A DNA stretch of 64,000 nt, from positions 25,870 to 89,869 of the forward strand of contig CAYNVT010000002.1 in the NCBI GenBank assembly GCA_964400685.1, written 5' to 3'. This DNA is from an uncultured Bacteriovoracaceae bacterium. GTDB taxonomy: Bacteria > Desulfobacterota > Desulfomonilia > UBA1062. The notes under the pieces were generated by a model. It was given only the letters and a program-made list of their open reading frames with translations, did no database searches and had not been told where the DNA came from. Each line of letters begins with the position of its first letter. Position 1 is the stretch's first letter. The position numbers and the translations under genes were made by a program. This document shows positions 29,161 through 52,107 of this stretch, in pieces.

Positions 29161-29177
29161 AAATAAGAGGTGTAGCA

Positions 29178-30333: not shown

Positions 30334-30378
30334 AAATATAACTGCAGCTTGGATAACTATTATGGAGGTTAGTTGAAT

Positions 30379-36333: not shown

Positions 36334-36363
36334 TTCTTATTTTTGTTAATAAAAGGGGCGTTT

Positions 36364-39012
36364 ATGATTAAAACAATAGATTTCATGGGAAATAATGATT
36401 TATACGAAGCGATATCAGCATACTGCAAATTCAAATCTGAAGGTATTGAACTGATAAAATTAAGCAATATAGACAATACCACGAATAATGTATTGATTGT
36501 TGATCTTCATGATAAGGAAATTGTCAAGTCATTGGGTAAGCATTTAACGAGAACCGGTTCAGAAGAAATCCCTTTCATTGTAATTGTGGGGTTGGAGGAC
36601 AATCTGAATGATTATGATAAGTACATTAATAACCCAATTATTGATGACTTGTCCCCCATCCGACTGATGACACATGCCTGCGGGAAAAGATATTTCAAAT
36701 ACTTCAGCCTGCCGGCTCAAATTTCAGCACTCATATCATTTATCCTTCATGACAAAAAACCATTAAAGAACCCTTTTAAGCATCTTTCCGAAATGGTTAA
36801 TGACTTGCCAACAACAATTAAAGATCCTTTCGAAGATTTCATTATAGAAACAGGAAGATTTACCGACCCTGATTACAGAAGAATGAAGAGAATGAAGGTA
36901 TTTCATGATGACCCAGATAGGCCGAAACATGAGATGCAGTATTATGATTATGTCATCGCTTACCTCAAGTATCAGAGTTCATTAAAAAACGAACCCTTCA
37001 ACATACTGGTTATCGATAATAAACCTGGTGGTGTTAGAATTAAAAGTACAGATGAATCAAATAAACCAGATGATAGTATTATTAAAGGTATAAATAAATC
37101 ACTTCGGGATGCCCTGAAGGACATCGAGAATATATTCAAAGGTTATAAATTCTGGTTAGTTGAAGAAAAAAAGCATTTCAGCGATTTAAAGAATCACCTC
37201 ACTAATTTCCTTCAAGAAAAAAATAGTAAGGATCATGCAATCAATGAAAGGGCAATATTAAGCAAGATTAAGAATACCAGCGGTGAAGATGAGGACAGCA
37301 AACCTTGCAGATTCAATGATATTGATCTCATCCTGATTGATCTCTTTTTAGAAGAGGATGACATGAGCGGTATAGATTTTCTTCATCTGTTCACCCTCCT
37401 TTATCCACAGATCCCGGCCTTTATTCTTAGTAACAGTGAAGACCCTGAGATGATCACAAAAACCATAAAAGAGAAGGCTGATAACTATATTCTTAAAAAA
37501 TGCATCTACTCAATGCCGTTTATTTATTACGATTATATAGAACAGCTCGGAAGACTGGTGGACTACATTGAAGACAAAGACCTGAAGAGAAATCTAATTG
37601 GCAACCTTCGTTACTGGCGATTTAAGAAAGAATTCATCTGGTTTGGTGACAAATGCTACCATATGATCAATCATTCTTTTAATCACACAAATAACAACTG
37701 GCTGTTAGCAAATCAGATTTTACCTCATATCATTGATTATATCGAGCAATCTGAACAGCAATTTTATGATGAAGACATCTATGTCCTAAGTATGGCCATC
37801 TGGTTGCATGACTTGGGTCATAAAGGCAACGAACATTATGGTGAACCCCATGAGATTAGAGATCTCCACGGACTGATCAGCGGGGAGATAATTATGAAAC
37901 ACCCCGAATCATACGGCATTTTCGGGTATAGTGAACAAGAAGGATGTTCATGTGTGTCTCCCTATAGATGGGCATCATTCAGTCACCATAAAACAGCATT
38001 AGAGAGTATAAGAGAGCGTCTGGCAAATATTATGAGTTCATGTTGCATGATGACAAATGTCAATGAAACCACTGATATTAATAGAATATATAAACAGGTA
38101 CGCCGGTTGACTATTCTTGAAAAGATTGCCCTGTTATGCATTTTCCACAAAAGCAACTTTCCATTGGATGAAAAAGATATTCTTCAATTCGGACAGAAGG
38201 GAAAGCGGATACCTCTAGATTGCTATATCAATAATGATCAGACAACAAGTCCTATTCACTTAAAAAGTCTCACAGATATCTTGATTGATGATAATTTCAT
38301 TCGTCTTATGGCCCTCTTCAGATTCATAGATGGTCTGGACATTAATGAAAATCGTGTCGGCGATGGCACTGAGGAGGCAGTGAAGAAAGAAACCATTTTT
38401 AGGGATATTGAATATCAGAAGCTTAAGCTGAAAAGAGAGGTTGAAAGCTTGATAGAAATCAATCTAAGAGAGTCAAATCTTGAAAAGAGGTTTTTTAATC
38501 TCTTCTACGAGAGACCTGTCCAGGATCTTGAGAAAAACACCTGGATAAGTGATGACCTGAAAAAAGAACAGCGTCTGTTTCTTGATACACTGCGGATTAA
38601 CCTGCCACTTGAGAATTATTATACATTATTGGAATACATTGAATTTTTATCAGTTCAAGATGGTCATTTTGGATTGCACAACAGCATTATCAGTGTCGAT
38701 ATTCAACCCATGGTATTACCTGTCGCAAAAGACGGACTTCCATGTTTTAAGGTCAGTTACAAATCATCCAAGAGGAAAGAACAGCTTGAATCTGATGATA
38801 TAAAAGTAAAGATAAGAGGGGAAAAAGATGGAAAATCCATACGAAACCATCTGCTTGGTTTTAAAGATAAAGAAAAGATTGAAGAAGGTTATGTAAGGAA
38901 AGAACTTAACAATGGGAAAATATATTTAAAAGAATGGTTCGAAATAGATTCAACAGAAATTATTATAAAGACCAAAGATGATAAAACTGAAGAAGAAACA
39001 AGAAAAAAATAA
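36364..39012 (+). CDS. large REC-like + HD-domain phosphohydrolase protein (~882 aa)
   Basis: Receiver-like segment DIDLILIDLFLEEDDMSGIDFLHLF. HD motif H-x(n)-HD in NHSFNHT ... AIWLHDLGHKG. No GYP motif seen. Confidence 0.6.
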   Translation: MIKTIDFMGNNDLYEAISAYCKFKSEGIELIKLSNIDNTTNNVLIVDLHDKEIVKSLGKHLTRTGSEEIPFIVIVGLEDNLNDYDKYINNPIIDDLSPIRLMTHACGKRYFKYFSLPAQISALISFILHDKKPLKNPFKHLSEMVNDLPTTIKDPFEDFIIETGRFTDPDYRRMKRMKVFHDDPDRPKHEMQYYDYVIAYLKYQSSLKNEPFNILVIDNKPGGVRIKSTDESNKPDDSIIKGINKSLRDALKDIENIFKGYKFWLVEEKKHFSDLKNHLTNFLQEKNSKDHAINERAILSKIKNTSGEDEDSKPCRFNDIDLILIDLFLEEDDMSGIDFLHLFTLLYPQIPAFILSNSEDPEMITKTIKEKADNYILKKCIYSMPFIYYDYIEQLGRLVDYIEDKDLKRNLIGNLRYWRFKKEFIWFGDKCYHMINHSFNHTNNNWLLANQILPHIIDYIEQSEQQFYDEDIYVLSMAIWLHDLGHKGNEHYGEPHEIRDLHGLISGEIIMKHPESYGIFGYSEQEGCSCVSPYRWASFSHHKTALESIRERLANIMSSCCMMTNVNETTDINRIYKQVRRLTILEKIALLCIFHKSNFPLDEKDILQFGQKGKRIPLDCYINNDQTTSPIHLKSLTDILIDDNFIRLMALFRFIDGLDINENRVGDGTEEAVKKETIFRDIEYQKLKLKREVESLIEINLRESNLEKRFFNLFYERPVQDLEKNTWISDDLKKEQRLFLDTLRINLPLENYYTLLEYIEFLSVQDGHFGLHNSIISVDIQPMVLPVAKDGLPCFKVSYKSSKRKEQLESDDIKVKIRGEKDGKSIRNHLLGFKDKEKIEEGYVRKELNNGKIYLKEWFEIDSTEIIIKTKDDKTEEETRKK

Positions 39013-39105
39013 ATAGACAGGTTTTTTTCGAGACAGACAGCAAACATATAGAAGCCTATCACAAATGGGCGAGAGTTTATCCCAAATGGCTGATGAAAAG
39101 AATCT

Positions 39106-40164
39106 TCATTTTAACCTGCCAAGAAAACGATTTTTAAACGATTTGCCATTTACAGATAAGACGACGGAAACATGTGGTTTCCTTTTGCATACATCGACAT
39201 CTTGCAATAAGGATATGTCGCTCGCGCCCGATTTCGATTTGTTTAATCTTGCATAAGCATCTTTATAAAGCGAATTGTGCCAGGGATTACGCGGACGACG
39301 GTCAATTATTGTCTGACCCAAGGCGATGCCAGGCTCAGTAACAACATCAACTTGATAGGTATCTTGTTTTGTAATCAAATCATCCCAGATGGCCAGGCCT
39401 ACAGCCAGGGGATCATGCAGATAGCAGCCGTTAAAACTTTCGTTTCTGTGATAGAAATCCATATACATCTGGCAAATGTCCCAGGTAAAATTGCTATTCC
39501 CACTTTTGTTCTTAAGGGTGTGCAACTCACTTCGAGTCAGTGGGCATTGCATGCAGGCATCGAGACCGACAACCGTCATTGGGACACCGAAATTAAGGAC
39601 TTCAGCTGCGGCATCGGGATCACAGAATGCATTGAATTCAGCGACCGGTGAAATGTTGCCGTGCTTCTCATAAGCACCGCCCATCCAGATTATTCGTTTG
39701 ACGCGTCTAACCGCCTCCGGATCTTTACTTATGGCAAGGGCGATGTTTGTCAAGGGGGCTGTGGCAACAATCGTGAGGTTCTGCAAGGGGAGTGATCGTA
39801 GGGTTTCCAGGATCAGATCAACGGCCGATTGCTTATCTATTTTATCCGAAGATGGATTCGGATATTTCGCTGAAACATCACCTAGTCCATCGGGACCATG
39901 GATTCCGCCCGCACGAAACGGGCTCCGTTTAACCGGACGCCATGCCCCCATTGCAACAGGCGGTAATGGTTTTCTTTGGACCTGTTCAAGCGTTTTTATG
40001 GCGTTCAGGGCACATTGCTCAACACCTACATTCCCACCGCAAACGGTGATCGCCTTAACGTCTATTTCCGGTGATTTCATTGCAAGCATTATAGCCAGAG
40101 CGTCATCAACGCCTGGGTCCATGTCAAGAAGTATGGGGTGAGATTTAGATGCCGTCTTTTTCAT
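39106..40164 (-). CDS. inosine-uridine-preferring nucleoside hydrolase family protein with C-terminal extension
   Basis: N-terminal ILLDMDPGVDDALAIMLA (DxDxxxDD Ca-binding signature of IUNH). Confidence 0.75.
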   Translation of the reverse strand: MKKTASKSHPILLDMDPGVDDALAIMLAMKSPEIDVKAITVCGGNVGVEQCALNAIKTLEQVQRKPLPPVAMGAWRPVKRSPFRAGGIHGPDGLGDVSAKYPNPSSDKIDKQSAVDLILETLRSLPLQNLTIVATAPLTNIALAISKDPEAVRRVKRIIWMGGAYEKHGNISPVAEFNAFCDPDAAAEVLNFGVPMTVVGLDACMQCPLTRSELHTLKNKSGNSNFTWDICQMYMDFYHRNESFNGCYLHDPLAVGLAIWDDLITKQDTYQVDVVTEPGIALGQTIIDRRPRNPWHNSLYKDAYARLNKSKSGASDISLLQDVDVCKRKPHVSVVLSVNGKSFKNRFLGRLK

Positions 40165-41533
40165 AAGTGCCTTCCTTGCTCTTTAAGTATGTTATAGCTC
40201 TTTCATATTTGGATACTGAGGAAACAGACAGTTCTTTATCCAGACTGCTCAGAAGTTCTGCAATGATGACGATATCTTCTCGTATCATACCCTTACTTTC
40301 TATTTCAATCTCCACATCGGCTCCGATTCGCCTATCATTGATATCATTAAAATACACGTGATCTACACAGACCTCCGCCTGCTGATTTTGCTTGTTGTTA
40401 ATTGTAATAGAAACACGATTGGTGTTAATTTTAACAGCTCTTACAAGAGATTTGCAGTCCGGGGCCAGATAACTGATAAGGCGGCAGGGAAGGGCAGAAA
40501 TGCGCTCTCCTTTTTCGAGTAACTCTTTTTCTTTAATTGAGATAGGAGCTTCTTCTTCCGATCGGCTATACCACATTCCTTTCTCATTGGATGTTGTGTT
40601 TTGAACTTTTGTTTTGAGTGTTATTTGAACATAATCTTTTTTCTCGCGTAAACGAAATGACATTCCTGCATTGAAAAGACAAAAATTGATGTCATCGAAA
40701 TAGGTATCCTTCTGTAAAACTGGTTTGGTTTCCGCAATAATCCCCATATCTAAAGATAATAATCCCTTCCGGCATGCCAAAATCAATTTCTCAAAATCCT
40801 TATCGTTCATGTTTGACCGTAATAGCTTACACTCAATATCGTAAGGAGAAGGGGACTTTTCCGGCGGTTGCGGGATTGTCGATAAATATCTATCCACTAT
40901 TTCATTATATTTTTTTATATAGGGATGAACTGTGTTACGCCTACCTGCTGCATGTTCGAGCTCAGGCAAAGTCCAATAATTTTTACCATGGAAATCATTT
41001 TCCGGATATACAACAGTTTTAATGGTCCCATTTTCGGCATTCCATCTTACCCAATGAAAATGATCTGGGTCGATACCGTTTTTAGTCAGGGGATGAATTC
41101 TGTGATATTGGACTTTTGATTCAACGCCATTGACCTTTTTAATCTTTTCAAATTGTCTGGCAAACAGAGGACTGTGGGAATAATCAGGACGAGGTATGAT
41201 GTAGTATAAATTAGGATTGATGTCTTCTTCCGCTGACAGATTTGAAACCACCATAGTAGGTGTTAAAATAGTATCTATAATATGAATTACACCGCCATCA
41301 TATCGAAAGGAGTATCCATTCATATAGAAGAAAATATCCTGGCAAGAAATAAGAATTCCAAAAGAGTCCTTATTCATAGTCATGCGCCAGTCATCTGGCA
41401 AATACTCGTTTATGTCAGCGACGATACGGACAAACAGTTCAACTGATAATCCTCCACCACGTTCTTTGTGCCTGGCGATAGGATGAATATCTTCAGGATG
41501 TTCTTTATCTTGTGTACGGGAAAAGACAAGCAT
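40145..41533 (-). CDS. two-domain protein: unknown N-terminal domain + C-terminal CYTH (triphosphate tunnel metalloenzyme)-like domain
   Basis: C-terminal half has IAETKPVLQKDTYFDD ... FRLRE ... ITLKTK ... ADVEIEIES, matching the CYTH ExK/RLR/TxK/EIEIE pattern. Overlaps the hydrolase gene by 20 nt. Confidence 0.6.
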   Translation of the reverse strand: MLVFSRTQDKEHPEDIHPIARHKERGGGLSVELFVRIVADINEYLPDDWRMTMNKDSFGILISCQDIFFYMNGYSFRYDGGVIHIIDTILTPTMVVSNLSAEEDINPNLYYIIPRPDYSHSPLFARQFEKIKKVNGVESKVQYHRIHPLTKNGIDPDHFHWVRWNAENGTIKTVVYPENDFHGKNYWTLPELEHAAGRRNTVHPYIKKYNEIVDRYLSTIPQPPEKSPSPYDIECKLLRSNMNDKDFEKLILACRKGLLSLDMGIIAETKPVLQKDTYFDDINFCLFNAGMSFRLREKKDYVQITLKTKVQNTTSNEKGMWYSRSEEEAPISIKEKELLEKGERISALPCRLISYLAPDCKSLVRAVKINTNRVSITINNKQNQQAEVCVDHVYFNDINDRRIGADVEIEIESKGMIREDIVIIAELLSSLDKELSVSSVSKYERAITYLKSKEGTYEKDGI

Positions 41534-41976
41534 TTAAATAGCCTCCTTATATATAAACAAATTTTAATTTTTTCTATGAAGCAGTTTGTTCAGGGAAATA
41601 AATTCTTAGCATCAACTATATACGAAAAAGTAACTGATTCTTAACCAGTTGAACACTATGGTATATACGATTATACAACTTAAAAGACAACTTTGTTTTA
41701 TCCATAGCATTGACATCAACCTTAACCGTGTATAAAACGAAGGATGAGATACTCTTACATGTGTGATAGATACATCCTTTCTTGAGATTGGGATGCATAT
41801 CATAAATGTAGAAACAAAAGACGAATTTTCAAGTGGGGTAATATCCCTTGATGACAGACCAACAAGGGCCCCTTTTTTCAGGAATCACGCAGAAAAAGTC
41901 ATTAACATCGTACTAGTGTTGAAAGAGAAAACTTTGAAGACTTTCTGCTCAAATTTCTCATTGAGAAGGGTTAATT

Positions 41977-43215
41977 ATGACTTTTATTAGTGATAGCACC
42001 CTGGATAAACCTAAAATCATAGAGGCTGTTAGTGTATTTATACAGCCCCTTCAACTTGAAAGTCCCGATTCTCTTAATGATTATAAATGGTCCAAAATCA
42101 ATGAAAACGGATTTGACGATGATGATATAAGAATTGTTCAGTTAAAAGAATGGCAGGAAGAAATCATTGAGTATGGAACTATTAAAATTCAGGCGAGATT
42201 ATTACCGAAAATAGGTTGGATAAAAAAATGTGAATGGGTGGCGCTCATTATTGAAGCCCATTTGAACATAACAGATAATGATCTATATATTGATGATCTG
42301 CTTTCGTTTAACGTTGGATTTCGTAAATCAAGAGGTTTACCGGTCCCTGATAATAGCCATTTCGAAATGAATATAAATAATTATCTTCTCTCAAATGGAA
42401 AGCCCTGTTCAGATATTTATAAAAGATATGCTGATGAGATATTTGGAATGAACAAATATAAACCACTTTTAAACCTTCAAAAATCAGTCATACTTTCTCT
42501 TGGACGATTTGATCGTATTTTAACGGATAAAGACCTTTATCGTTTTGGCAGTGTTGCCTATCCCCATGAGCAAATTTCGGATGAATGGGTCAATACTGCA
42601 AGAGAGAACATGGTTGATCGCTGGATAAAAACAGGTTGGCGTTGCTTCGCTTATTCATACAGTATGGTTTATGCTCTCAACGAGTCATATCCAGGTAGAT
42701 TAGATGATAAAATCAGAGGTAACTTTCTAGATAAGTATGTAAGAACTGGTGTAACAATTGCTTTGCATAGGGCTATGCTTCAAGAATTGCCCCTGAAGCT
42801 TAAACAGGCAGAGAGCTTGGCCGAAATGCGTAAATGCCATCAGGAAATGGCAAGAATCAATAACTATGTTGGAGTCCGATGGACTTCTGAGGGTACACAG
42901 AATACAAAAATTGAACAGATATGGCGCAAGGCTACAGGCATTGAAGACAGAATGAACGAAGTAAAGCTGTTGCTGGAAGAGAAGATTGATGTTTATGAGG
43001 CTCAGGAGGCAGATAGATTAAATAATGGAATTTTCATATTACAAATAATCTTTGGTGCATTCTATGGAGCACAAATTGGCCTGGCATTGGGATCGGATTT
43101 TGTCCATTTGATTTTGGGTATGGTGATTGGACTTGTATTGATATTTATATTTATTTGGTTAGAAAAACGAATAAAGATTTTAGAGCGAATCAAGAAAATG
43201 AGTATTTTTAAATAA
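41977..43215 (+). CDS. hypothetical protein with C-terminal double TM anchor (412 aa)
   Basis: RBS AGAAGGGttaattATG. C-terminal hydrophobic helices IFILQIIFGAFYGAQIGLALG and LILGMVIGLVLIFIFIWL. Confidence 0.55.
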   Translation: MTFISDSTLDKPKIIEAVSVFIQPLQLESPDSLNDYKWSKINENGFDDDDIRIVQLKEWQEEIIEYGTIKIQARLLPKIGWIKKCEWVALIIEAHLNITDNDLYIDDLLSFNVGFRKSRGLPVPDNSHFEMNINNYLLSNGKPCSDIYKRYADEIFGMNKYKPLLNLQKSVILSLGRFDRILTDKDLYRFGSVAYPHEQISDEWVNTARENMVDRWIKTGWRCFAYSYSMVYALNESYPGRLDDKIRGNFLDKYVRTGVTIALHRAMLQELPLKLKQAESLAEMRKCHQEMARINNYVGVRWTSEGTQNTKIEQIWRKATGIEDRMNEVKLLLEEKIDVYEAQEADRLNNGIFILQIIFGAFYGAQIGLALGSDFVHLILGMVIGLVLIFIFIWLEKRIKILERIKKMSIFK

Positions 43216-43497
43216 TAATGTTAAATTTTAAGAGGCTATTGTTTTTATGTATCGATAAGAATTGATCATAAATTCGTTGATAACTTTTTTACGATTACTA
43301 TAGTTTATGCTTGTCAACTATCAGTGTATAATGAGTCATAGACTTATTAAGGTATATTTTTTGTAATGATAGCATCCTTAAAACATAAAAAGGTTTTGAT
43401 ATTCTGTCTTAAATGTGATTACGTTTAACTGGTTATAATTTTAACTGTTTGTGTCTGATGGTGTTATTCGTGATCTGACACACAGGAGGTTCTTAAA

Positions 43498-45633
43498 ATG
43501 AACAAAAAAAAATATTACTTACTTATTATCTTACTATTGATTTTTCTAATCCCTCTTTTTGCCAGCTGTAAACAGAAAGTAGATGAAGTTAGAACAACGA
43601 AAGAAACTATAAATATTCAAAAGGTAAAAGCCATTGATGGGATTGATTTATATTTGCTCATTGATGAATCTGGAAGTATGAGCGGTCAAATGGGTACAGA
43701 TAAGGCCGGACTGCGATTCGATGCCGGAAAATATCTGATCCAGAACCTTCTTGTAAAAAATAGTGATCCAGAGAATCCTAATCGAGTGGCTGTTATTCAT
43801 TTCGGAGATGATGCAACTTCAAAAGGATTGATTGATCTTACTCTTGGTGGTGTAAAGGATCTGGCAGTGGCTGTTGATAGCGACAGCAAGATAAATATGG
43901 GGGATACAAGTTTTTTGAGAGCTCTTGAAAAGGTTGTGTTATTAGATTCATCAGCCCCTGAATGCAAGAATGTAAGGAATAAGATCATCGTCATTTTTAC
44001 TGATGGTGAACCCGATGATGCAAGACATCTGGCCTCCATCCAGAAGTATTTCAATGAGATCCAGTTATACTTTAAAGAAAAAATGAAGGGATTTTCACTC
44101 TATGTTATTGGCATTGACAATCAATCATCTCGAATCAAGTTTTCCGATACCATGCCGGAATGGAAGAAAGTTGCAGGCGATAACAACGTTCATGTCCTTA
44201 GGGATGTAAAAGATCTATATACAAAATTCAACCAGACGATCCAACAGATATTCGAGTTGCCACAAATAGAACGTGTTACTGTAACTAAATCTGAAGATTT
44301 TGAAGTACAGCCTTATCTGGACAAGGTTGAATTCCACATTTTCACAGAATCAAATATAAAACTTGGTATCCGAAGACCTGATGGAAAACTTGTGAATGTA
44401 AAAGATAATGGTGTTTCACAGAAAACAGTAGGCCGGTATTCAATTCTAACCATTAATAGTCCTGAACCAGGTCTATGGAAGTATGAAATACTTGAAGGAA
44501 CAGGAAGCGTTAATATCTTGAGGAACCCAATACCTTTCAGGCTACAACTGGAATATCCTCCGAGCGTATATCCTGTAGGAAAACCGCTCATGATTCGTGC
44601 TCAATTTACCAAGGCGAATGGAGAAGAGGTTAAAGAGTTACCTGATTATCCACTTTCATTTACTGCGAAGGTTACATCACCGGATTATCCCAATTATGAT
44701 GAAGATGTTCAATTCCTTCCCAAAAACAAAATAAACAAAACTTATTATGCAAGTTTACCTGTGAAAATTGAGAAACCAGGTGAATATCATATTAAGTTGA
44801 AAGTAAAAGGCGGAACGCGTTTTGAGACTTCAAATACGCAAAAGATTTTTGTTCAATCATATCCGTACTTCAGCTTTTCCATTCCAGAACCACTCAATAC
44901 ATATCCTCTGTGTAAGAGTATGAAGATTGAGGCGACAATCAGACGTGGGAAAGAGATATCTGATCCAAAGAAAGAGTATCAAGATAACCCCAATGATCTT
45001 GTCCTTGTTCAGATCGTTTCATCTTCAAATAACCAGTCTTCTCCTGCTGTGTGGCTTAATTATGAAGGCAAGGGGAAGTACAGCTCAATTATCCCATTTG
45101 AATTGAAAGAAGGTAATTATACTTTTGCTGCAAAGGTTAAAGGAGAACCTAGGTTAGCAGACAAAATGATACCAACTGAACAGATTGAGGACTTTGATTT
45201 CTTCGTTTCTCCTACGGGAGGTCAGCTTACAAGTTCTATTGCTAAGATGGCTGGTATGATAATTTTAACCATTCTTATCATCTGGAGTATCTGGATTGTA
45301 ATATGGTTAAATATATTTACGAAAAAATTTTCCGGATATTTAAATGTATCTATCGGAGATGAACAATATATTGAAGGATACCAGGAATTCAAGTGGCTAA
45401 GACCAATAACAGCAGATATTAGCGGTGTGATAAGTGATGAGGATTCCAGAAAAAAGAGTAAAAAGAAAATATCATTCTGGGTCAAGGCAAAAGGTGAAGA
45501 TACAGTTTGTGTATATATAGGCGGGTGGGTTTCATTATTCCTTATGGGGATTATTTCGAAGAAATCATCAGTTTCAAAAGATGATGGAAATAGTGAACTT
45601 GGAGAATATATTGCGATTAAGATAAGTCAATAA
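43498..45633 (+). CDS. exported von Willebrand factor A (vWA) domain protein with C-terminal TM anchor (711 aa)
   Basis: RBS ACAGGAGGttcttaaaATG. Signal/lipobox LIPLFASC. MIDAS DxSxS in DLYLLIDESGSMSG. C-terminal TM MAGMIILTILIIWSIWIVIWL. Confidence 0.75.
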   Translation: MNKKKYYLLIILLLIFLIPLFASCKQKVDEVRTTKETINIQKVKAIDGIDLYLLIDESGSMSGQMGTDKAGLRFDAGKYLIQNLLVKNSDPENPNRVAVIHFGDDATSKGLIDLTLGGVKDLAVAVDSDSKINMGDTSFLRALEKVVLLDSSAPECKNVRNKIIVIFTDGEPDDARHLASIQKYFNEIQLYFKEKMKGFSLYVIGIDNQSSRIKFSDTMPEWKKVAGDNNVHVLRDVKDLYTKFNQTIQQIFELPQIERVTVTKSEDFEVQPYLDKVEFHIFTESNIKLGIRRPDGKLVNVKDNGVSQKTVGRYSILTINSPEPGLWKYEILEGTGSVNILRNPIPFRLQLEYPPSVYPVGKPLMIRAQFTKANGEEVKELPDYPLSFTAKVTSPDYPNYDEDVQFLPKNKINKTYYASLPVKIEKPGEYHIKLKVKGGTRFETSNTQKIFVQSYPYFSFSIPEPLNTYPLCKSMKIEATIRRGKEISDPKKEYQDNPNDLVLVQIVSSSNNQSSPAVWLNYEGKGKYSSIIPFELKEGNYTFAAKVKGEPRLADKMIPTEQIEDFDFFVSPTGGQLTSSIAKMAGMIILTILIIWSIWIVIWLNIFTKKFSGYLNVSIGDEQYIEGYQEFKWLRPITADISGVISDEDSRKKSKKKISFWVKAKGEDTVCVYIGGWVSLFLMGIISKKSSVSKDDGNSELGEYIAIKISQ

Positions 45634-45664
45634 TCCTGAAGAGTATTCAAAGGAGGATCAAGGT

Positions 45665-48600
45665 ATGGCAAGTGCATTCTTAGTGGTTGGTGTTGGTGGA
45701 TGCGGTCGTGGGGTCTGTACTCACATTAAACATGATATTGAGCAGGAATTTGGTTCTCTTGAAGCAGCAAAGATTAAAATATTAGTTATTGATGGTCCTG
45801 ATAAGGACGATGTTTATGCACTTCCAGGCGGTTTTGAAATTGATACCGGAAAAGATTCACCAGAGTTTTATCGAACTATGATAACGCCAGCACCTGTTAT
45901 AAAAAATATTGCAGGGGGCAGAATCAGTTCCAATGAAGCTTATATAGCTCAATGGTTATCTCAAAAAGCAGCTGAAAAAATTCCCACAGATTCAATAGAT
46001 CCAACAACAGGTTTTGGCGGGCATAGATCACCGGGACATGCTTACTTTTATCTTGATGTAGGTAATATCAAAACCAGGTTAGTTAGAGAATACGATATTG
46101 CTAGAAAATTACTTGGTGGTTCGGAAAAATCATCGAATCAGGTTATTATAGTTGTTGTCGGTTCACAGTCTGGAGGCACCGGTGCAGGTCTTCTTTTTGA
46201 TGTTATGCATTTATTGAGAGATATTGCATTGCAGAACCATGATATGGTTATGAGCTTTCTACCTTTGGCGAACACATATCATAACCTGCCTTCCAGTCCA
46301 GGGCAGATGGCGAATCACAATGCACAGAATTTTGCTGGTCTATTGAATCTGATGCGTTTCATGACTACAACAAACAATTTCCCTACCATTATCAAGTACA
46401 GTGATATGGTTGAAGTACATAATGCACGCATTGCCGACATACCGTTTGTTATTGATGGAAATGTGCCCAATGCAAAGTTTAATGATGTGCCCCCACGGCT
46501 TGGTGTTGTTCCGGTAATTGCAGATTTTCTCCTAACAATTATTAAAGATAATATCAGGACATCAGTTCTTCAGCCACGTATTACTGACTGGGCACAAAAA
46601 AATATAGGAGCAGCTGAGTATCCAGAGAAGTATGCTGCTTTGGGGGCAACCTCAATCCGTTATTCCCATAAAGATATCCTGCAAACATTTTCATATCGGT
46701 TTACAGTAGCACTCTACGATCTAATTCTGAATCCAATTGGGACAGAGTTTGATAAGGGAAAGATCATCGCAAACAGTATCCTTAACCAGATAACCTTTAC
46801 TCAGATGGTTGAAAACCCTCAATCTACTTCTCTGGAACCGCCATCACCACCTAAGTTCAGCCCTGAGTTCAGGACGTTAGGTTCGCGTATCCGAACAGGA
46901 AATCCCGGTGAACAACCTTTCCCCTATCCGGCGAAACCTTTTACTGAACAGATTGATTATGGACATAGTGTTACGCGGCTTGGAGGGTTACGTGAGAAAG
47001 TAGATGTCAAGAATGATGCAATTAAGCTTAAGGAGAATTTAAAGCTACGGTTAGAAACCTGGATAATGAATCAACACGAAAAAATCGTGACTAGAGTGGT
47101 TAAAGATATTGAAGATCAAATGAATGATGTTTTTTATGTAAAACAAGGAGAACATCTTGTCCCCAGGACTCTACAGGATTCACCAAGTTCTATTATCATT
47201 GCCAGGGATTTACTTAAGTATTTATTGGAAAAGCTGGAGAATTATCAAGGGCATTTATCGTCTGAGTTTAATAATCTTATGTATCCGAACGGACCTGAAA
47301 AGAACAGCATCATTGCTGAGCATCTGCTTAAGTTGAATGATGCTGAAACGAAAATGATTAAAAGAAGTAGTTCTGAGACTCAGAAGAAATATCTTGAAGT
47401 GATGCAAAAGCATTTTAACCTTGAAGTATGGGATATTCTTGTTCAAGGTTCTCAATCTATTACGAGTGATATAATAAAGCGGGTTAATAGCCTATGGAAT
47501 CTCATTGGTGAAGGGGCGGATGGTTGGATCACAATCCTAAGGAAGTATCGGGATCTGATTAACGGAATGTACCAGGGAGATCTTGAAAGACGTCGTGGCT
47601 TTGATAAGATGCGTTTAAGGAGATACGTGCCTAATACTGGGAGCGAAGCGGAAGACCGGCTTTTTGAAGAAGTTGCCGTTCCGGTTTTGAATTCATTGAA
47701 ACCAAAGGTTTATTGGACCTTTGCTATAGACTCACAGATTCCTGGCAAGTATGAGATTCTGATTAACTCCCCTTCAGTTCCCAACTATGATAACAAAAAA
47801 TCAATCAACGATCTTCGAGATGTAATAACAGGGAAGAAATTGGAAGATGTTCATTATTATAATCCCTTCAGTCATTGTCAGTATGCAATCAACGAGATCG
47901 GTGGACCGCTTGATAACAAAACTGTCTGGGACATACTTGAAATTGAATGTAATGAGTGCTGGTGTAAGGATCAAAGGATACCACCTGATAGACGAAATTC
48001 AGATGCTTTTGCTTTATATCTTGCTGAGGATTTCTTGAAACGGTCTGATGTGGCACTTGATTATAGAAATGCAGATAACCTTTTGAAACAGGATTACACG
48101 ATATGTTATCTTCCAGGAGATATAGGTAGTGTAGGTGGAAAATTCATTAAGGAGTTGGAAAATAAAGACTGTCAGATTTCATCACATCAGGGTCTTTCAA
48201 AAGAAGTGAGAAGAGTGAATCTGCACTTTAGAATACCTATCAAACAGTGGGGTTATTATGGACAGGCCCAAACAGATTACGTGAAATATATAGACAGCAA
48301 AGTGCCCAAAATACTTATTGATATATATCCACAGGAACAGAATGCAAACCGGATCAGAAAATATATTGAATCTAGGATTGACTATTCCTTCACCCAGGTT
48401 ATAGAAACATCTGTTTCATCTTTATTATATGATTATAATATTTTTCAAAAAGCAGCTCTCTGTTACGTTATGGGCCTGATCCCTACGGTGGCAGGCGCTG
48501 AAGCGATTTCACCAAAGAGGTATTCTCTGTCATTAAACGCAGGATCAATGGACTTGGGAGAAGAGTGGGATATTTATACGCTTATGAATAACATTAACCG

Positions 48601-48862
48601 GCCGGAAAGAGAAATGACAGATAAGCATTGGCAATCAAACATAGATGTACATGATGAAATTACCTCCATCTGGAACATATTCTTACAAGGACGTGTACAA
48701 AATCTATCTGGATTGGCAGTGGATTTAAAGGCACAAGTTAAAAATATTCAGCTGCCTTCTCCACCAACAGGACAAACTGACTCAATTGACCCACAAGGCA
48801 AACAACATTTAACATTGGCCATCAGGGCTGTCGTAGAAGAATATGCGGAGCTGCTACAATGA
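45665..48862 (+). CDS. giant tubulin/FtsZ-superfamily GTPase-like protein (1065 aa)
   Basis: RBS AAAGGAGGatcaaggtATG. N-terminal G-box FLVVGVGGCGRGV (compare FtsZ GVGGGG). T4 tubulin signature VVVGSQSGGTGAGLLFD (GGGTGSG-like). Long C-terminal extension of unknown fold. Confidence 0.6.
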   Translation: MASAFLVVGVGGCGRGVCTHIKHDIEQEFGSLEAAKIKILVIDGPDKDDVYALPGGFEIDTGKDSPEFYRTMITPAPVIKNIAGGRISSNEAYIAQWLSQKAAEKIPTDSIDPTTGFGGHRSPGHAYFYLDVGNIKTRLVREYDIARKLLGGSEKSSNQVIIVVVGSQSGGTGAGLLFDVMHLLRDIALQNHDMVMSFLPLANTYHNLPSSPGQMANHNAQNFAGLLNLMRFMTTTNNFPTIIKYSDMVEVHNARIADIPFVIDGNVPNAKFNDVPPRLGVVPVIADFLLTIIKDNIRTSVLQPRITDWAQKNIGAAEYPEKYAALGATSIRYSHKDILQTFSYRFTVALYDLILNPIGTEFDKGKIIANSILNQITFTQMVENPQSTSLEPPSPPKFSPEFRTLGSRIRTGNPGEQPFPYPAKPFTEQIDYGHSVTRLGGLREKVDVKNDAIKLKENLKLRLETWIMNQHEKIVTRVVKDIEDQMNDVFYVKQGEHLVPRTLQDSPSSIIIARDLLKYLLEKLENYQGHLSSEFNNLMYPNGPEKNSIIAEHLLKLNDAETKMIKRSSSETQKKYLEVMQKHFNLEVWDILVQGSQSITSDIIKRVNSLWNLIGEGADGWITILRKYRDLINGMYQGDLERRRGFDKMRLRRYVPNTGSEAEDRLFEEVAVPVLNSLKPKVYWTFAIDSQIPGKYEILINSPSVPNYDNKKSINDLRDVITGKKLEDVHYYNPFSHCQYAINEIGGPLDNKTVWDILEIECNECWCKDQRIPPDRRNSDAFALYLAEDFLKRSDVALDYRNADNLLKQDYTICYLPGDIGSVGGKFIKELENKDCQISSHQGLSKEVRRVNLHFRIPIKQWGYYGQAQTDYVKYIDSKVPKILIDIYPQEQNANRIRKYIESRIDYSFTQVIETSVSSLLYDYNIFQKAALCYVMGLIPTVAGAEAISPKRYSLSLNAGSMDLGEEWDIYTLMNNINRPEREMTDKHWQSNIDVHDEITSIWNIFLQGRVQNLSGLAVDLKAQVKNIQLPSPPTGQTDSIDPQGKQHLTLAIRAVVEEYAELLQ

Positions 48863-49671
48863 TAATAATGAAGGATTCTAAATAATTTTGCATAACTGTA
48901 TTTATTGGATCACATTGCAATATTATTTGTTGAATAAAAGAATCTTTGCTAGGTATAGCAAACAAATTGGTAGATGCAACATAAGTACATTTTACGTTAC
49001 TTTCCAATTCTTCGGAAATGTATACGATAATTAGTCGTCCCTGAAAAACCCGATATCAGATCAGATGGGCGCCCAATTGAGGCGCCTGTTATGTTTTTGG
49101 GGGAAGAAAATGTGCCATAAAATGAGCACAAAAAAGAAGCAAGCTCTTTCATGAGCTTGGAAAAGTTGAAAGAGCTGATGCAAGCATAAGATCAACATGC
49201 CTGTTTTCCCTTGGTCACTTTTCAACTGAGGTCTGATGGGTTTCTAGCCGAGTGTGTCATAGGTATGAAATAAAATAATCTCATGTACGGGTTCTCTAAT
49301 CCAGTTAATTAAATTACAGTTCCCCATCAGGTTCAAGAATCGAATTACTTTTCTCAACTATCATTATATCCATAAATACTCCTACTTCTTAAAGACTATA
49401 ACGATAATTTTCATGAATTGTGCTCACCATTCTTTAAACTGACCAAAATCAAGGGACGGTATGTCAATTTTTCAGGTTTATCATATTAGGTTGCATTTTC
49501 CTGAGTTGACATAAGATGGGTTATTAGCAGCTTTTCATTGATACCAGGTTTTAAATAGCAGGATCACTTCTCCTACCTAACTTTAGAATAAAACATTCTA
49601 TGCATGGTCACATTTTTTGCCAAAGGCCGTCTATGTTTATCAAGAAAAAAAATAAATAAAGGAGATTGTAA

Positions 49672-50670
49672 ATGAGAAAAGTATCACTGTTGCTATCATT
49701 GTTATTCGTATTATTGCTTTCATCGCCGGCTTGGGCAATAAATGTTTCATTGACAACTACTATTGAGGGTGGGAACAAGCCGGTAGTAGTTGGAAAGACA
49801 AATTTACCTGATGGTATGAAGCTTTCTGTTTCAATGAATAGTAATAACAGAGTTCTTATTCGTAAAGATACAGTAACAGTTGTTAGTGGATCTTTTCGCA
49901 CTTATCCGTTTACCCGTAATGGTTCAGAGCTTAATGCAGGCTCATATACGGTTGTCATTAATTCACTTGGAACAGCAGACCAGCCTCCGTCAGTTCGAGA
50001 TGTTTTAGGTAAAGGCGGTAATAAGCTTACGGGGGCTAATGTTATAAAAACTAAAAATGGGAGCAATATCATATCATATAGCTTTTCTTTTTTGTTAAGC
50101 AGTAACAGTTCACCAGAAAAGGAAAAAGCTTCACAAAGCAATGAAAAATCATCAACTGTTTCAAACTTTTTTAAACGTCCAAACGGAAACTTGGAAGATT
50201 TTCAGATGAAGGGGAAGCTGGGAGTTGGTATCGAGATCTCTGTCGCAAATTTTGGTATTGGCCCAACAGTAGAATATTGGTTTACTGATAATATAGCAGT
50301 GGAGGCATTTTATTCCGGTTTGGCAGATTGGAATGCATATGGAGCACGTGGTGAATATCTTATTAATAAACCATTCTCAATTTCTAAGATAAAAGCAAAA
50401 CCATATATCGGTATTGGTTACTCTTGGATAAAAGGTCCATCTGAAGATTATGGCGGAGTATCATCCAAGATAGAGGGAAGTGGTTTCGACTTGCATGCTG
50501 GTTTACTTGCCTCTGTTCCATATCTACCCAAGAATCTTATGTCACGGATTGAAGTTAATTACTCAAACGCTGATGTAAAAACTACAGCCTCAGCTGGTGA
50601 TTACACTGCATCAAGTTCATCTAATTTCAGCAATTTCGGTGCTGGGATAGGTTTATACTACTTCTTCTAG
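49672..50670 (+). CDS. outer-membrane beta-barrel protein (332 aa)
   Basis: RBS AAAGGAGAttgtaaATG. Signal peptide ending SPAWA. Alternating amphipathic strands. C-terminal GAGIGLYYFF aromatic terminus. Confidence 0.65.
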   Translation: MRKVSLLLSLLFVLLLSSPAWAINVSLTTTIEGGNKPVVVGKTNLPDGMKLSVSMNSNNRVLIRKDTVTVVSGSFRTYPFTRNGSELNAGSYTVVINSLGTADQPPSVRDVLGKGGNKLTGANVIKTKNGSNIISYSFSFLLSSNSSPEKEKASQSNEKSSTVSNFFKRPNGNLEDFQMKGKLGVGIEISVANFGIGPTVEYWFTDNIAVEAFYSGLADWNAYGARGEYLINKPFSISKIKAKPYIGIGYSWIKGPSEDYGGVSSKIEGSGFDLHAGLLASVPYLPKNLMSRIEVNYSNADVKTTASAGDYTASSSSNFSNFGAGIGLYYFF

Positions 50671-50913
50671 GCGAGGGTTAGAAAGCCTCTGATTTTGAGA
50701 ATGGAAATTATCATGACACAGTATTTACAAAATACAAGTAACAAGGAATTAAAGAGGGATGGGATATATATTCCATCCCCTCCTTGTACGTTGTTCACTA
50801 ATCTTCATAATGATCGAGATATGTGGTCGAAATCGAATTAGAATTCCTGGTGGATTTTTCCGTCCAGATATCAATCTCCCTTGTGGACAATTTGAAAAGA
50901 AATCATCCAGCTG

Positions 50914-52107
50914 ATGTCAATTAATATATTTTCTAAATTGCTTATCCTTTCTATTGTAATCACTGTTGCTTGTAATCCTTCGTATGGGGCTGAAGGTCCG
51001 GAAATGACCGATCAGGAAAGTAATAAAGACCCTTCAAAGGAAAATCAGTTTGATACTTGTATCTCAGAGACAAAGAGCGCTTTATCAGGAATATCTTTAA
51101 AGCTTAGCATTGGAGGAGAAATTAATAATTGGAAAGTCGGGACAAGAAGCAGCAAGGAAGATCAGGAAAAGGTAATTGATTATGATTCTGAGGGGCTCGC
51201 ATGCGCCAGACTTCAGCTAAGTCTGGGTTCTCAAAACTATCCTGTTTTATACACCATGTATGAAACCCCCTTTAACCCGTCAGACAGGCAAAATGAAATG
51301 CTCCGGGTCAATAGCAAACAAGAAGGAGGGATGGAACTTTTCACTGGTTATATAGATATAGCACCTATTGTAAAATATATTATGCCCTCGAATTCATTCC
51401 TAGGAGCAGTTGCAGAGTTTCTTTTTTCTGTAAGATTCAAATATACAAGGGATCTTTTCTATTGTGATGCTGATGTACTTAAACCTTCATACTATGTGCC
51501 GATGACGGCAACGATAGATTATGTTGAGCGTGTGTTGTCAGGTATTGCCAAACTTGAACCGGGAGAGGAGATAACATTCAAATCACAGTTTGATTATCAG
51601 GAGATAACTCTTCCCTTATTTGATTTAGGGGATCCTGAAACAAAATTTACAACGCACAAATTCAGGATGGGATATTTCCAGATGAAGTACGGCAAACCAA
51701 CTGATGCGGTTGGTTTGCAAGTGGACAGGTTGCCTTTGATCTGCGAAACCGAATATGAATCACAAGGACTTGTCATTGCATTTCAAACAATAGATCCTAA
51801 TGCAGCAGGACTTAATTTTGATCTCAGTGTGGGTCTCGGAATAAACAACAGCGTAAAATCGGCAATAGATTTCGATCAGGTGTATGGGAAAAAGACAGAA
51901 GCATCTTTTGCAATGTGCACACTGGCGATATGGTACAACTTGTATTTTGGCAAAAAAAATAATTCAGGATTTTTCACTACTGTCGGAGGCTCAGTCCAGC
52001 CTGTAATAGCTGTTATCAAAACTGATGAAGACAATAGTTACTCAGCTATTTTTAGGGATGAAGACACCCTGTTCAAAGGCTTTTTCTCTATCGGGTATAG
52101 TTTTTAG
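50914..52107 (+). CDS. secreted hypothetical protein, possible OMP beta-barrel (397 aa)
   Basis: Signal peptide ILSIVITVACNPSYGA. C-terminus SIGYSF. Confidence 0.5.
   Translation: MSINIFSKLLILSIVITVACNPSYGAEGPEMTDQESNKDPSKENQFDTCISETKSALSGISLKLSIGGEINNWKVGTRSSKEDQEKVIDYDSEGLACARLQLSLGSQNYPVLYTMYETPFNPSDRQNEMLRVNSKQEGGMELFTGYIDIAPIVKYIMPSNSFLGAVAEFLFSVRFKYTRDLFYCDADVLKPSYYVPMTATIDYVERVLSGIAKLEPGEEITFKSQFDYQEITLPLFDLGDPETKFTTHKFRMGYFQMKYGKPTDAVGLQVDRLPLICETEYESQGLVIAFQTIDPNAAGLNFDLSVGLGINNSVKSAIDFDQVYGKKTEASFAMCTLAIWYNLYFGKKNNSGFFTTVGGSVQPVIAVIKTDEDNSYSAIFRDEDTLFKGFFSIGYSF

What the first reader, a model, noticed from the sequence alone, without database searches (positions are those of the whole stretch)
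41977..52107. Membrane protein + exported vWA protein + 1065-aa tubulin/FtsZ-like GTPase, followed by two beta-barrel OMPs
The 45665-48862 product carries a GTPase-family G-box (GVGGCGRG) and a T4 tubulin signature (GSQSGGTGAG, compare GGGTGSG). It is about three times the size of FtsZ or TubZ and has a roughly 700-aa uncharacterised C-terminus. It sits 31 nt downstream of an exported, C-terminally anchored vWA/MIDAS protein and after a 412-aa protein with a C-terminal double TM. Two OMP beta-barrel genes follow. Divergent bacterial FtsZ/tubulin families linked to membrane-remodelling or vWA partners have been proposed in the literature, but I cannot place this protein in a named family. The pairing suggests an envelope-associated cytomotive or defence module.
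Basis: partly seen in the sequence, partly recalled or inferred. Interest (0 to 1): 0.8.

Follow-up and report, generated by a model that had tools for sequence, protein, structure and literature searches.

The report
FtsZl1 tubulin-like protein with vWA partner
The 1065-aa protein belongs to a tubulin/FtsZ-like family described by sequence analysis in 2010 (FtsZl1, Pfam Tubulin_2) and sits beside that family's usual membrane-anchored vWA partner; in relatives the pair travels with nucleotide-degrading enzymes and type III CRISPR genes, which points to a still untested role in phage defence.

Summary

The vWA gene lies directly upstream in every related locus with readable upstream DNA, with one exception. 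It encodes a lipoprotein with an intact MIDAS site, Ig-like domains, one TM helix and a cytoplasmic tail of about 100 aa.

The two putative OMP genes are not part of the module. No relative has them, and an 810-nt gap with a terminator-like hairpin separates them from the tubulin-like gene.

The 412-aa protein is CorA-like, on moderate evidence, and occurs only in close relatives. It links to a second gene set: a CYTH protein, a REC/HD-CE protein and an IU-nucleoside hydrolase. That set, or CARF genes, or type III CRISPR genes, recurs beside the pair in independent lineages.

Best reading: a known but uncharacterised vWA-FtsZl1 module acting inside a nucleotide-centred defence ensemble. The mechanism is inferred. 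Interest is moderate.

The parts
43498..45633 (+). vWA partner, 711 aa. In order: signal peptide with a conserved Cys24 (probable lipoprotein), extracytoplasmic vWA domain with intact MIDAS (D56, S58, S60, T137, D169), about 340 aa of Ig-like beta domains, one TM helix (about 576-610) and a cytoplasmic tail (611-711).
   Evidence: Pfam VWA/VWA_2 plus weak Ig-like hits. Hydropathy and MIDAS in 17 homologues. Directly upstream of the tubulin-like gene in all related loci with readable upstream DNA except L036.
41977..43215 (+). CorA-like membrane protein, 412 aa. It has an N-terminal alpha/beta domain, long stalk helices and two C-terminal TM helices. The motif GAQIG sits where CorA has GMN. Probable membrane effector or channel.
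40145..41533 (-). CYTH-domain protein, 462 aa. It has an unknown N-terminal domain of about 225 aa and a CYTH domain with DIECK and EIEIESK motifs. Transcribed divergently from the CorA-like gene.
   Evidence: PF01928 at 2.3e-11. Motifs. A homologue of the N-terminal domain lies directly downstream of vWA-Tub in L020. A CYTH gene follows the ORF1 homologue in L032.
39106..40164 (-). Inosine-uridine-preferring nucleoside hydrolase, 352 aa, with the catalytic DxDxxxDD motif intact (DMDPGVDD).
   Evidence: PF01156 at 2.8e-87. Motif. Homologues lie beside vWA-Tub in L020, L037-40 and L042, and one is fused to HD-CE in L032.
36343..39012 (+). 889-aa protein with a receiver-like domain (about 218-400) and an HD-CE phosphohydrolase domain (WLHDLGH). 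It is a weak relative of the HD-CE proteins found beside vWA-Tub elsewhere.
   Evidence: Pfam Response_reg 8e-7 and HD-CE 1.2e-4, both below Pfam cut-offs. PADLOC CARF_HD at 9e-4. Weak BLAST matches to the L010, L011, L032 and L037 HD-CE proteins. Membership in the system is inferred.
49064..49090 (+). Terminator-like hairpin (10 pairs, 6 G-C, T-rich tail) about 200 nt after the tubulin-like stop codon. Probable end of the transcription unit.
   Evidence: Consensus scan and sequence. This is a consensus match only.
49672..52107 (+). Two putative outer-membrane proteins (332 and 397 aa). Judged NOT to belong to the module.
   Evidence: Weak OMP_b-brl hit at 1.2e-3 for the first ORF only. No homologue in any of 42 related loci. 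An 810-nt gap with a terminator-like site separates them from the tubulin-like gene.

Best explanation
Genes 43498-48862 are an ordinary member of the vWA + FtsZl1 (Pfam Tubulin_2) two-gene module.

Shown:
- The large protein has a complete tubulin/FtsZ fold and a full set of nucleotide-binding loops.
- Its partner is a membrane-anchored protein with a metal-dependent ligand-binding vWA domain predicted to lie outside the cytoplasm and a short tail predicted to lie inside.
- The two genes are almost never separated.
- In this subfamily the pair recurs next to IU-nucleoside hydrolase, HD-CE phosphohydrolases (some fused to CARF or TCAD9 kinase-like domains), a CYTH protein, a ClpB-like AAA+ ATPase and, in two lineages, type III CRISPR effector genes.

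Inferred:
- The vWA ectodomain senses or binds something at the envelope, or simply anchors the complex.
- Its cytoplasmic tail recruits the tubulin-like protein.
- The tubulin-like protein binds GTP and self-assembles into a membrane-proximal polymer or scaffold.
- That assembly acts as a threshold switch or platform for a nucleotide-centred abortive-defence response. The response would be carried out by the neighbouring HD-CE / CYTH / nucleoside-hydrolase enzymes (nucleotide or signal degradation) and by the CorA-like two-TM protein (membrane permeabilisation).

The OMP genes are unrelated neighbours.

The confidence of 0.5 is for the whole statement. Family identity and obligate vWA pairing stand at about 0.95, a defence or conflict role at about 0.55, and the specific sensor-scaffold-effector sequence at about 0.25.
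For: Family and fold:
- PF13809 at 90.7 bits. PF13809 is equated with FtsZl1 in PMC9871819. The family description (about 1050 aa, helical middle region, vWA operon partner with intact MIDAS and TM segments) is in PMC2875224.
- G9, G11, G12, G14, G116, G118, R121 and S167-G175 are conserved across 117 family members.

Pairing:
- vWA is directly upstream, on the same strand, 8-50 nt away, in every related locus with readable upstream DNA except L036.
- The partner's architecture is conserved in all 17 full-length homologues examined.

Context:
- L020: NH + vWA + Tub + CYTH.
- L032: ORF1 homologue + CYTH + a single polypeptide carrying REC, HD-CE and IU-NH.
- L010 and L011: HD-CE + TCAD9, and in L011 also a deaminase and an NT5C nucleotidase.
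- L004: TCAD9, with DarT/Macro nearby.
- L037-40 and L042: CARF, IU-NH, AAA+, vWA and Tub; L037-40 also carry a CARF-HD-CE fusion, a second HD-CE gene after Tub, and UvrD_C.
- L041: type III RAMPs + Csx19 + Csx3, then vWA-Tub, then TIR/NACHT genes.
- L002: Cmr type III-B genes 2.5 kb downstream.
- Altae-Tran 2023 lists 'Tubulin + other protein + vWA' as a CRISPR-linked candidate. Kaur 2020 files tubulin + vWA systems as conflict systems.
- The window itself carries TPR-CHAT, a HerA-like protein, AbiEii and PDC-S01 genes.

Enzyme motifs are intact: NH DMDPGVDD, CYTH DIECK and EIEIESK, HD WLHDLGH.
Against: - No experiment exists for any FtsZl1 protein, and no structure is solved. The best PDB sequence hit is TubZ at E 0.026.
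- The window has no CRISPR array, no cas gene and no detectable CARF domain.
- PADLOC has no model that matches the vWA or tubulin-like proteins.
- A canonical acidic T7 pair was not found. The family has Asn at the likely H8 position (Asp308 in the window), so polymerisation-stimulated GTP hydrolysis is unproven.
- The window's 889-aa HD-CE assignment rests on sub-threshold hits.
- Several relatives (L016, L018/19, L023) sit among kinase or metabolic genes rather than defence genes.
- Gene neighbourhood shows linkage. It does not show the order of events.
Confidence: 0.5

Rival explanations
1. A housekeeping-type membrane-remodelling or vesicle-forming cytoskeletal machine, as Makarova & Koonin proposed in 2010. 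FtsZl1 filaments, tethered by the vWA protein, would deform the inner membrane. The defence-gene neighbours would be coincidental island cargo.
For: This is the original proposal for the family. The partner is membrane-anchored with a cytoplasmic tail. The protein has a complete tubulin fold plus a long helical region. Some relatives have no obvious defence neighbours (L018/19, L023).
Against: IU-NH, HD-CE, CARF, CYTH and type III CRISPR genes recur beside the pair in independent lineages in different gene orders, and one locus has an HD-CE-NH fusion. That is hard to explain by chance. The subfamily is rare and patchy across phyla, with about 51 clusters among 1.84 billion representatives, which is typical of mobile defence cargo. 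The window region has low GC compared with the BamA end.
Confidence: 0.2
2. Part of a regulated nucleoside or nucleotide salvage pathway. The recurrent Liv-type ABC transporter, nucleoside hydrolase, NT5C, deaminase and HD enzymes would form a catabolic pathway, with vWA-FtsZl1 as an envelope-associated accessory.
For: A Peripla_BP_6 / BPD_transp_2 ABC transporter lies near the modules in the window, L001/L033, L032, L018/19 and L023. The neighbouring enzymes all act on nucleotides.
Against: Liv-type transporters are very common, so chance proximity is plausible. The transporter neighbours in L018 are SDR and 2-hydroxyacid dehydrogenases, which look like unrelated metabolism. CARF, Csx3, RAMP, TIR, DarT and AbiE neighbours do not fit salvage.
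Confidence: 0.08
3. One reading: one envelope-spanning machine made of the inner-membrane protein, the vWA protein, the tubulin-like protein and the two outer-membrane beta-barrels.
For: All five genes are on the same strand. Makarova & Koonin noted OmpA-family neighbours in some FtsZl1 loci.
Against: No OMP1 or OMP2 homologue occurs in any of 42 related loci. An 810-nt gap with a terminator-like hairpin lies between the tubulin-like gene and the first OMP gene. The OMP calls are weak, and no OmpA peptidoglycan-binding domain was found.
Confidence: 0.04
4. A DNA-segregation tubulin of a plasmid or phage (TubZ/PhuZ type), or an extra cell-division FtsZ.
For: TubZ, PhuZ and FtsZ are among the structural matches.
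Against: No match in 72,556 plasmids, 50,697 phages or IMG/VR viral contigs. No TubR-like gene and no centromere repeats. No PF00091, FtsZ_C or Tubulin_C match. The protein has about 620 extra residues and an obligate vWA membrane partner.
Confidence: 0.03

Closest known systems
FtsZl1 family (Makarova & Koonin 2010; Pfam PF13809 Tubulin_2) with its vWA operon partner
   Same: Full-length PF13809 match. About 1050-1100 aa. N-terminal tubulin/FtsZ-like GTP-binding domain, then a long helical region and a further C-terminal domain. Adjacent vWA gene with intact MIDAS, signal peptide and TM segment. No FtsZ_C or Tubulin_C domain.
Tubulin + vWA arms of the DO-GTPase / GAP1-N2 conflict systems (Kaur, Burroughs, Iyer & Aravind 2020)
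   Same: A tubulin-domain protein with a C-terminal helical or coiled-coil extension, paired with a membrane protein whose vWA domain faces outward. Interpreted there as an NTP-dependent assembly that sets a threshold in a conflict system.
   Different: No DO-GTPase, GAP1 or FNIII-repeat gene was found next to the pair in the window or its relatives. Those systems are described in Firmicutes and Actinobacteria. The loci here come from Acidobacteriota, Deltaproteobacteria, Ignavibacteria, Poribacteria and Armatimonadia-like MAGs.
CRISPR-linked 'Tubulin + other protein + vWA' candidates (UAS-129, UAS-130; Altae-Tran et al. 2023)
   Same: The same gene pair was noticed next to CRISPR loci. Relatives of the window's protein sit beside type III genes (L002, L041) and CARF genes (L037-42).
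   Different: The window has no CRISPR-Cas genes within 64 kb. That paper gives only an association score, with no mechanism and no link to IU-NH, HD-CE, CYTH or a CorA-like gene. I could not check whether UAS-129 is this same subfamily.
CetZ, archaeal and eukaryotic tubulins, TubZ, FtsZ (solved structures)
   Different: 10-16% identity. A large insert between S2 and S3 (residues about 43-110). No recognisable NxDxxD/E T7 motif. About 620 extra C-terminal residues. A dedicated vWA membrane partner.
CorA Mg2+ channels and type III CRISPR-associated CorA effectors (comparison for the 412-aa protein)
   Same: N-terminal alpha/beta cytoplasmic domain, long stalk helix and two C-terminal TM helices. 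Hit to PADLOC's CorA model. CorA is the top Foldseek PDB match.

Membership tests
FtsZl1 / Pfam Tubulin_2 (PF13809) | Match to the family profile above the curated threshold | tested here: met
   90.7 bits against a cut-off of 27; E 1.5e-25; residues 6-350 cover profile positions 1-354 of 356.
FtsZl1 / Pfam Tubulin_2 (PF13809) | Tubulin/FtsZ fold of the N-terminal region | tested here: met
FtsZl1 / Pfam Tubulin_2 (PF13809) | GTP-binding signature loops (T1 GxGxxG, T4 GGGTGxG-like) | tested here: met
   GVGGCGRG at residues 8-15 and SGGTGAG at 169-175. G9, G11, G12, G14, G170 and G173 are 99-100% conserved, and G171, T172 and G175 are 94-98% conserved, in 117 family N-domains.
FtsZl1 / Pfam Tubulin_2 (PF13809) | Architecture of about 1000-1100 aa with a helical/coiled-coil middle region and a distinct C-terminal domain | tested here: met
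   Helices 445-647, then an alpha/beta region 650-1065. Conserved along the full length in the subfamily.
FtsZl1 / Pfam Tubulin_2 (PF13809) | Operon partner with a vWA domain and intact MIDAS | tested here: met
   The partner ends 31 nt upstream. MIDAS is DESGS. The gene is directly upstream of the tubulin-like gene in all related loci with readable upstream DNA except L036.
Canonical FtsZ / tubulin (PF00091 with FtsZ_C or Tubulin_C) | PF00091 match and a family C-terminal domain | tested here: not met
   No PF00091, FtsZ_C or Tubulin_C hit at E up to 0.1. Profile searches of PDB sequences reach only TubZ at E 0.026 and FtsZ at E 5.8, both at the T4 loop.
Canonical FtsZ / tubulin (PF00091 with FtsZ_C or Tubulin_C) | T7 synergy loop with catalytic acidic residues (NxDxxD/E) | tested here: inconclusive
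TubZ / PhuZ DNA-segregation tubulins | Encoded on a plasmid or phage with a TubR-like adaptor and centromere repeats | tested here: not met
   No tblastn match in plasmid or phage collections. No match in viral contigs. No repeats in the window.
DO-GTPase / GAP1-N2 tubulin systems (Kaur 2020) | Adjacent TRAFAC DO-GTPase, GAP1 and FNIII-repeat proteins | tested here: not met
   Pfam scans of the larger window ORFs and of relatives' neighbours show no P-loop GTPase or FNIII genes beside the pair. GAP1 itself has no profile in the libraries used.
Type III CRISPR / cyclic-oligoadenylate accessory module | CARF or SAVED sensor domain, or cas10/RAMP genes, in the same locus | tested here: not met
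   In the window: no CRISPR array, no cas or CARF Pfam hit, and only a PADLOC CARF_HD hit on the HD part at 9e-4. The feature is met in relatives L002, L037-42 and L041.
CorA superfamily (412-aa protein) | Two C-terminal TM helices preceded by a long stalk helix and an N-terminal alpha/beta domain | tested here: met
   Hydropathy. AF2 secondary structure, pLDDT 72.
CorA superfamily (412-aa protein) | GMN motif at the end of TM1 | tested here: not met
   The sequence is YGAQIG. GAQIG is invariant in all four homologues.
CorA superfamily (412-aa protein) | Significant profile or fold match to CorA | tested here: inconclusive
Outer-membrane beta-barrel proteins (49672-52107) | Profile match to an OMP barrel family | tested here: inconclusive
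   First ORF: OMP_b-brl at 19.5 bits against a cut-off of 28.7. Second ORF: no hit. No PDB relatives for either. Both have a signal peptide and a C-terminal Phe.

The most novel reading that the evidence does not exclude
The vWA-FtsZl1 pair is the sensor and switch of a previously undescribed multi-gene immune system. The envelope-facing vWA lipoprotein detects phage attack or envelope damage. Its tail nucleates a GTP-dependent tubulin-like polymer. That polymer licenses a nucleotide-destroying cascade: an HD-CE NTP triphosphohydrolase releases PPPi, the CYTH triphosphatase removes it, and IU-nucleoside hydrolase destroys the nucleoside. A CorA-like pore acts alongside. In some lineages the system is additionally wired to type III CRISPR cyclic-oligoadenylate signalling through CARF-HD-CE proteins. 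This would be the first cellular tubulin homologue shown to work in immunity.
Probability: 0.25. Interest if true: 0.8.

Novelty: new variant of a known kind. Interest (0 to 1): 0.55.

Why it matters
FtsZl1 is one of the most divergent branches of the tubulin/FtsZ superfamily. Fifteen years after its description it still has no known function and no solved structure.

This locus and its relatives give three concrete handles.
- A confident model shows that the complete two-domain tubulin core is retained.
- The partner protein has a fixed topology that places a ligand-binding vWA domain outside the cytoplasm and a short tail inside.
- The pair is repeatedly linked to nucleotide-degrading enzymes, CARF proteins and type III CRISPR genes.

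Together these turn a vague 'membrane remodelling' proposal into a testable defence hypothesis. They also nominate compact operons (for example the L037 type, or window 36343-48862) for phage-challenge experiments.

If the hypothesis is wrong, the result is still useful. The finding then reduces to a known family with unrelated OMP neighbours.

Tried and rejected
- The look-up of encoding contigs with the window's own tubulin-like protein and with its identical database copy P0001 found nothing. The source organism stayed unnamed.
- The genome scan with the 18-sequence alignment failed for lack of a conserved stretch. It was repeated with 10 closer sequences.
- A second word-indexed homology search with the alignment added almost nothing.
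- Profile searches of PDB sequences with the subfamily alignment and with a 50-sequence family alignment did not reach tubulins significantly. T7 therefore could not be mapped by sequence.
- The afdb50 fold library was unavailable.
- Lenient Pfam scans of the unknown N-terminal domains of the 889-aa and CYTH proteins, the 990-aa and 250-aa ORFs, and the L037 and L032 unknown proteins gave nothing credible.
- No sigma-54 promoter lies in front of the module despite the conserved sigma-54 regulator nearby.
- Rfam, tRNA, tandem-repeat and CRISPR-like repeat scans of the window were all empty.
- No literature hit explains the Pfam name 'HD-CE'.
- Rejected: OMP membership in the module; a TubZ/PhuZ-type segregation role; a cell-division role.
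- The ABC-transporter link is treated as possibly chance.
Full report
**1. Observation**

The five ORFs are at the stated coordinates.
- The 45665-48862 product (1065 aa) carries GVGGCGRG at its N-terminus and GSQSGGTGAG at residues 166-175. An AAGGAGG ribosome-binding site lies 8 nt before its start codon.
- The vWA gene ends 31 nt upstream of it.
- The vWA product has a signal peptide ending in a cysteine, a VWA domain (PF00092 at 2.8e-11, PF13519 at 7.7e-9), the MIDAS sequence DESGS, weak Ig-like matches, one TM helix at about 576-610 and a tail of about 100 aa.
- The 412-aa protein has two C-terminal TM helices.
- The two downstream ORFs have signal peptides and a C-terminal Phe. Only the first gives an OMP_b-brl hit, and that hit is below threshold.

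**2. Family identity**

The large protein matches Pfam PF13809 'Tubulin_2' over the whole profile (90.7 bits, E 1.5e-25). Santana-Molina et al. (PMC9871819) state that Tubulin_2 corresponds to the 'FtsZ-like' proteins of Makarova & Koonin 2010.

That paper (PMC2875224) describes FtsZl1 as follows:
- proteins of about 1050 aa;
- encoded in predicted operons with vWA proteins that keep the MIDAS motif and often have signal peptides or TM segments.

So the protein is not unplaceable. It is a member of a family defined by sequence analysis that has never been studied experimentally. PDB sequence searches find no solved relative beyond a T4-loop match to TubZ at E 0.026.

**3. Structure**

The aligned lengths mean that both the GTPase domain and the second (activation) domain are present. 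This goes beyond the 2010 sequence analysis, which could align only to helix H5.

Across 117 family N-domains, the T1, T3-like (G116, G118, R121, G124) and T4 residues are nearly invariant.

It places helix H7 at residues 281-299.

I found no NxDxxD/E motif. The likely H8 position is Asn in 77% of the family and Asp308 in the window. The T7 question therefore stays open.

**4. Co-conservation with vWA**

Scans of genomes and metagenomes, plus contig look-ups, gave 42 loci.
- In every locus of this subfamily where upstream DNA is readable, a homologue of the 711-aa vWA protein lies immediately upstream on the same strand. The one exception is L036.
- All 17 full-length partners examined have the same plan. 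It consists of an N-terminal signal, the lipobox-position Cys conserved in at least 80% of them, intact MIDAS residues, a beta-rich region, one TM helix and a cytoplasmic tail of 85-145 aa.
- The ectodomain is more conserved than the TM helix and tail.
- The tubulin-like protein has no signal peptide and no convincing TM helix, so the tail is the only part of the partner that can reach it. This last step is an inference.

**5. What does not belong**

OMP1 and OMP2 have no homologue in any related locus. An 810-nt gap containing a 10-bp G+C-rich hairpin with a T tract (49064-49090) follows the tubulin-like gene. I conclude that the OMP genes are separate neighbours.

**6. The 412-aa protein**

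It matches PADLOC's CorA model (E 1.2e-4, C-terminal half) but not Pfam's CorA model. A moderate-quality model (pLDDT 72, four sequences) shows an alpha/beta N-domain, long helices and two TM helices.

Its family is tiny, with four clusters. It precedes vWA-Tub only in the closest relatives. In L032, however, a homologue is followed by a CYTH gene and then by a 1383-aa single polypeptide with REC-like, HD-CE and IU-nucleoside-hydrolase parts.

**7. Extended neighbourhood**

The window has the same parts as separate genes just upstream of the finding:
- an 889-aa REC/HD-CE protein (36343-39012, sub-threshold hits);
- an IU-nucleoside hydrolase (39106-40164, minus strand; PF01156 at 2.8e-87);
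- a 462-aa CYTH protein (40145-41533, minus strand).

Their catalytic motifs are intact.

Independent lineages repeat the theme in different gene orders:
- L020: NH, vWA, Tub, CYTH.
- L010 and L011: HD-CE + TCAD9, and in L011 also a cytidine-deaminase-like gene and an NT5C nucleotidase.
- L004: TCAD9 after Tub, with DarT/Macro nearby.
- L037-40 and L042: CARF (Cas_APE2256), an unknown gene, IU-NH, a ClpB-like AAA+, vWA and Tub. L037-40 also carry a CARF-HD-CE fusion, a second HD-CE gene after Tub, and UvrD_C.
- L041: type III RAMPs, Csx19 and Csx3, then vWA-Tub, then DUF4062-NACHT and TIR genes.
- L002: Cmr genes 2.5 kb downstream.

IU-NH is a rare gene, so its appearance in three independent lineages, plus the fusion, is very unlikely to be chance. 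This is my own rough estimate, not a formal test.

The window also holds TPR-CHAT, HerA-like, AbiEii and PDC-S01 genes. Its GC content is lower than that of its BamA end.

**8. Literature**

- Kaur et al. 2020 (PMC7159879) place tubulin + outward-facing vWA pairs inside GTPase-centred conflict systems. They propose NTP-driven multimerisation as a threshold device.
- Altae-Tran et al. 2023 (PMC10910872) list 'Tubulin + other protein + vWA' (UAS-129), 'Tubulin system' (UAS-130) and 'vWA + Tubulin' as CRISPR-associated candidates.
- I found no paper that links the pair to IU-NH, HD-CE, CYTH or a CorA-like gene.
- I found no experimental study of FtsZl1.

**9. Mechanism**

Shown:
- fold, motifs and partner topology;
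- obligate pairing;
- recurrent neighbours.

Inferred:
- the vWA ectodomain binds a ligand, or anchors the complex, at the envelope;
- its tail recruits the tubulin-like protein;
- GTP-dependent assembly creates a membrane-proximal scaffold or switch;
- the neighbouring enzymes and the CorA-like protein execute a nucleotide-centred abortive response.

One chemically coherent version rests on established family biochemistry. HD dNTPases release PPPi. CYTH triphosphate-tunnel enzymes hydrolyse PPPi. IU-NH cleaves nucleosides. This version is speculation for these particular proteins.

**10. Rivals**

- Membrane remodelling without a defence role (confidence 0.2).
- Nucleoside salvage linked to the recurrent Liv-type ABC transporter (0.08).
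- The five-gene envelope machine that includes the OMPs (0.04).
- A TubZ/PhuZ or FtsZ-like role (0.03). No plasmid, phage or viral-contig match was found.

**11. Verdict**

- The core is a known kind (FtsZl1 + vWA).
- The subfamily's conserved association with nucleotide hydrolases, CARF proteins, type III CRISPR genes and a CorA-like protein appears not to have been described. It gives the family a testable function.
- Interest is 0.55.

Noticed in passing
window 1-60000 versus 60001-64000: GC is 0.32-0.43 (0.46 in the 14-16 kb bin) across the first 60 kb. It rises to 0.48-0.50 at the end, where BamA (60369-63194, minus strand) lies. The low-GC stretch looks like an acquired island.
   Followed up: no
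window 5878-9093, 14148-16859, 56506-57986, 53542-54816, 58486-59793: Other conflict-type genes in the window: a HerA-like DUF87 protein (1071 aa), a TPR-CHAT protein (903 aa), AbiEii with a probable AbiEi just upstream, and two AAA_14-DUF4143 genes. The first of those two matches PADLOC PDC-S01 at 3.6e-102; the second was not scanned against PADLOC.
   Followed up: partly
window 20193-22004: A ClpB-like double-AAA+ protein (603 aa) is 28% identical (E 5e-68) to the 750-aa AAA+ encoded directly upstream of vWA-Tub in L037, L039 and L042. In the window it lies 23 kb away. Whether it belongs to the same system is unknown.
   Followed up: partly
window 24323-30278; L001/L033, L032, L018/L019, L023: A Liv-type ABC transporter (Peripla_BP_6, two BPD_transp_2 genes and, where sequence was available, ABC_tran genes) recurs beside the CorA-like or vWA-Tub modules in several lineages. 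In the window and in L001/L033 a radical-SAM gene sits with it. This could be a functional link or chance.
   Followed up: partly
window 23915-23930 (+): A sigma-54-like -24/-12 element (TGGTAT-N5-TTGCT) lies in the intergenic region upstream of the ABC-transporter genes. No such element lies in front of the vWA or CorA-like genes. Matches to the pattern are no more frequent in the window than in shuffled sequence.
   Followed up: no
window 34115-39012; L011 812-6273: The window and an Ignavibacteriaceae MAG share the gene order: small unknown protein (267 or 257 aa; E 2e-7), sigma-54 response regulator, HD-CE protein. This holds despite low sequence identity. L011 has an extra 238-aa gene between the last two.
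   Followed up: partly
window 30373-33345 and 33360-34112: A 990-aa ORF and a 250-aa ORF have no Pfam match, even at lenient thresholds. They sit between the transporter and the regulator genes.
   Followed up: partly
window 52402-53115: A 237-aa protein consists only of the DnaB C-terminal ATPase domain (PF03796 at 7.7e-42) and lacks the N-terminal helicase part. It also gives a weak PADLOC mad8 hit.
   Followed up: no
L036 10001-12925: One subfamily member (974 aa) lacks the vWA neighbour. It sits among RVT, Lon_C-NACHT, NTP_transf_2 and PIN genes.
   Followed up: no
L002 410-1849: The vWA partner next to the Cmr-linked relative corresponds only to residues 221-702 of the window's protein and has no vWA domain. 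This may be a truncation or an assembly artefact.
   Followed up: partly
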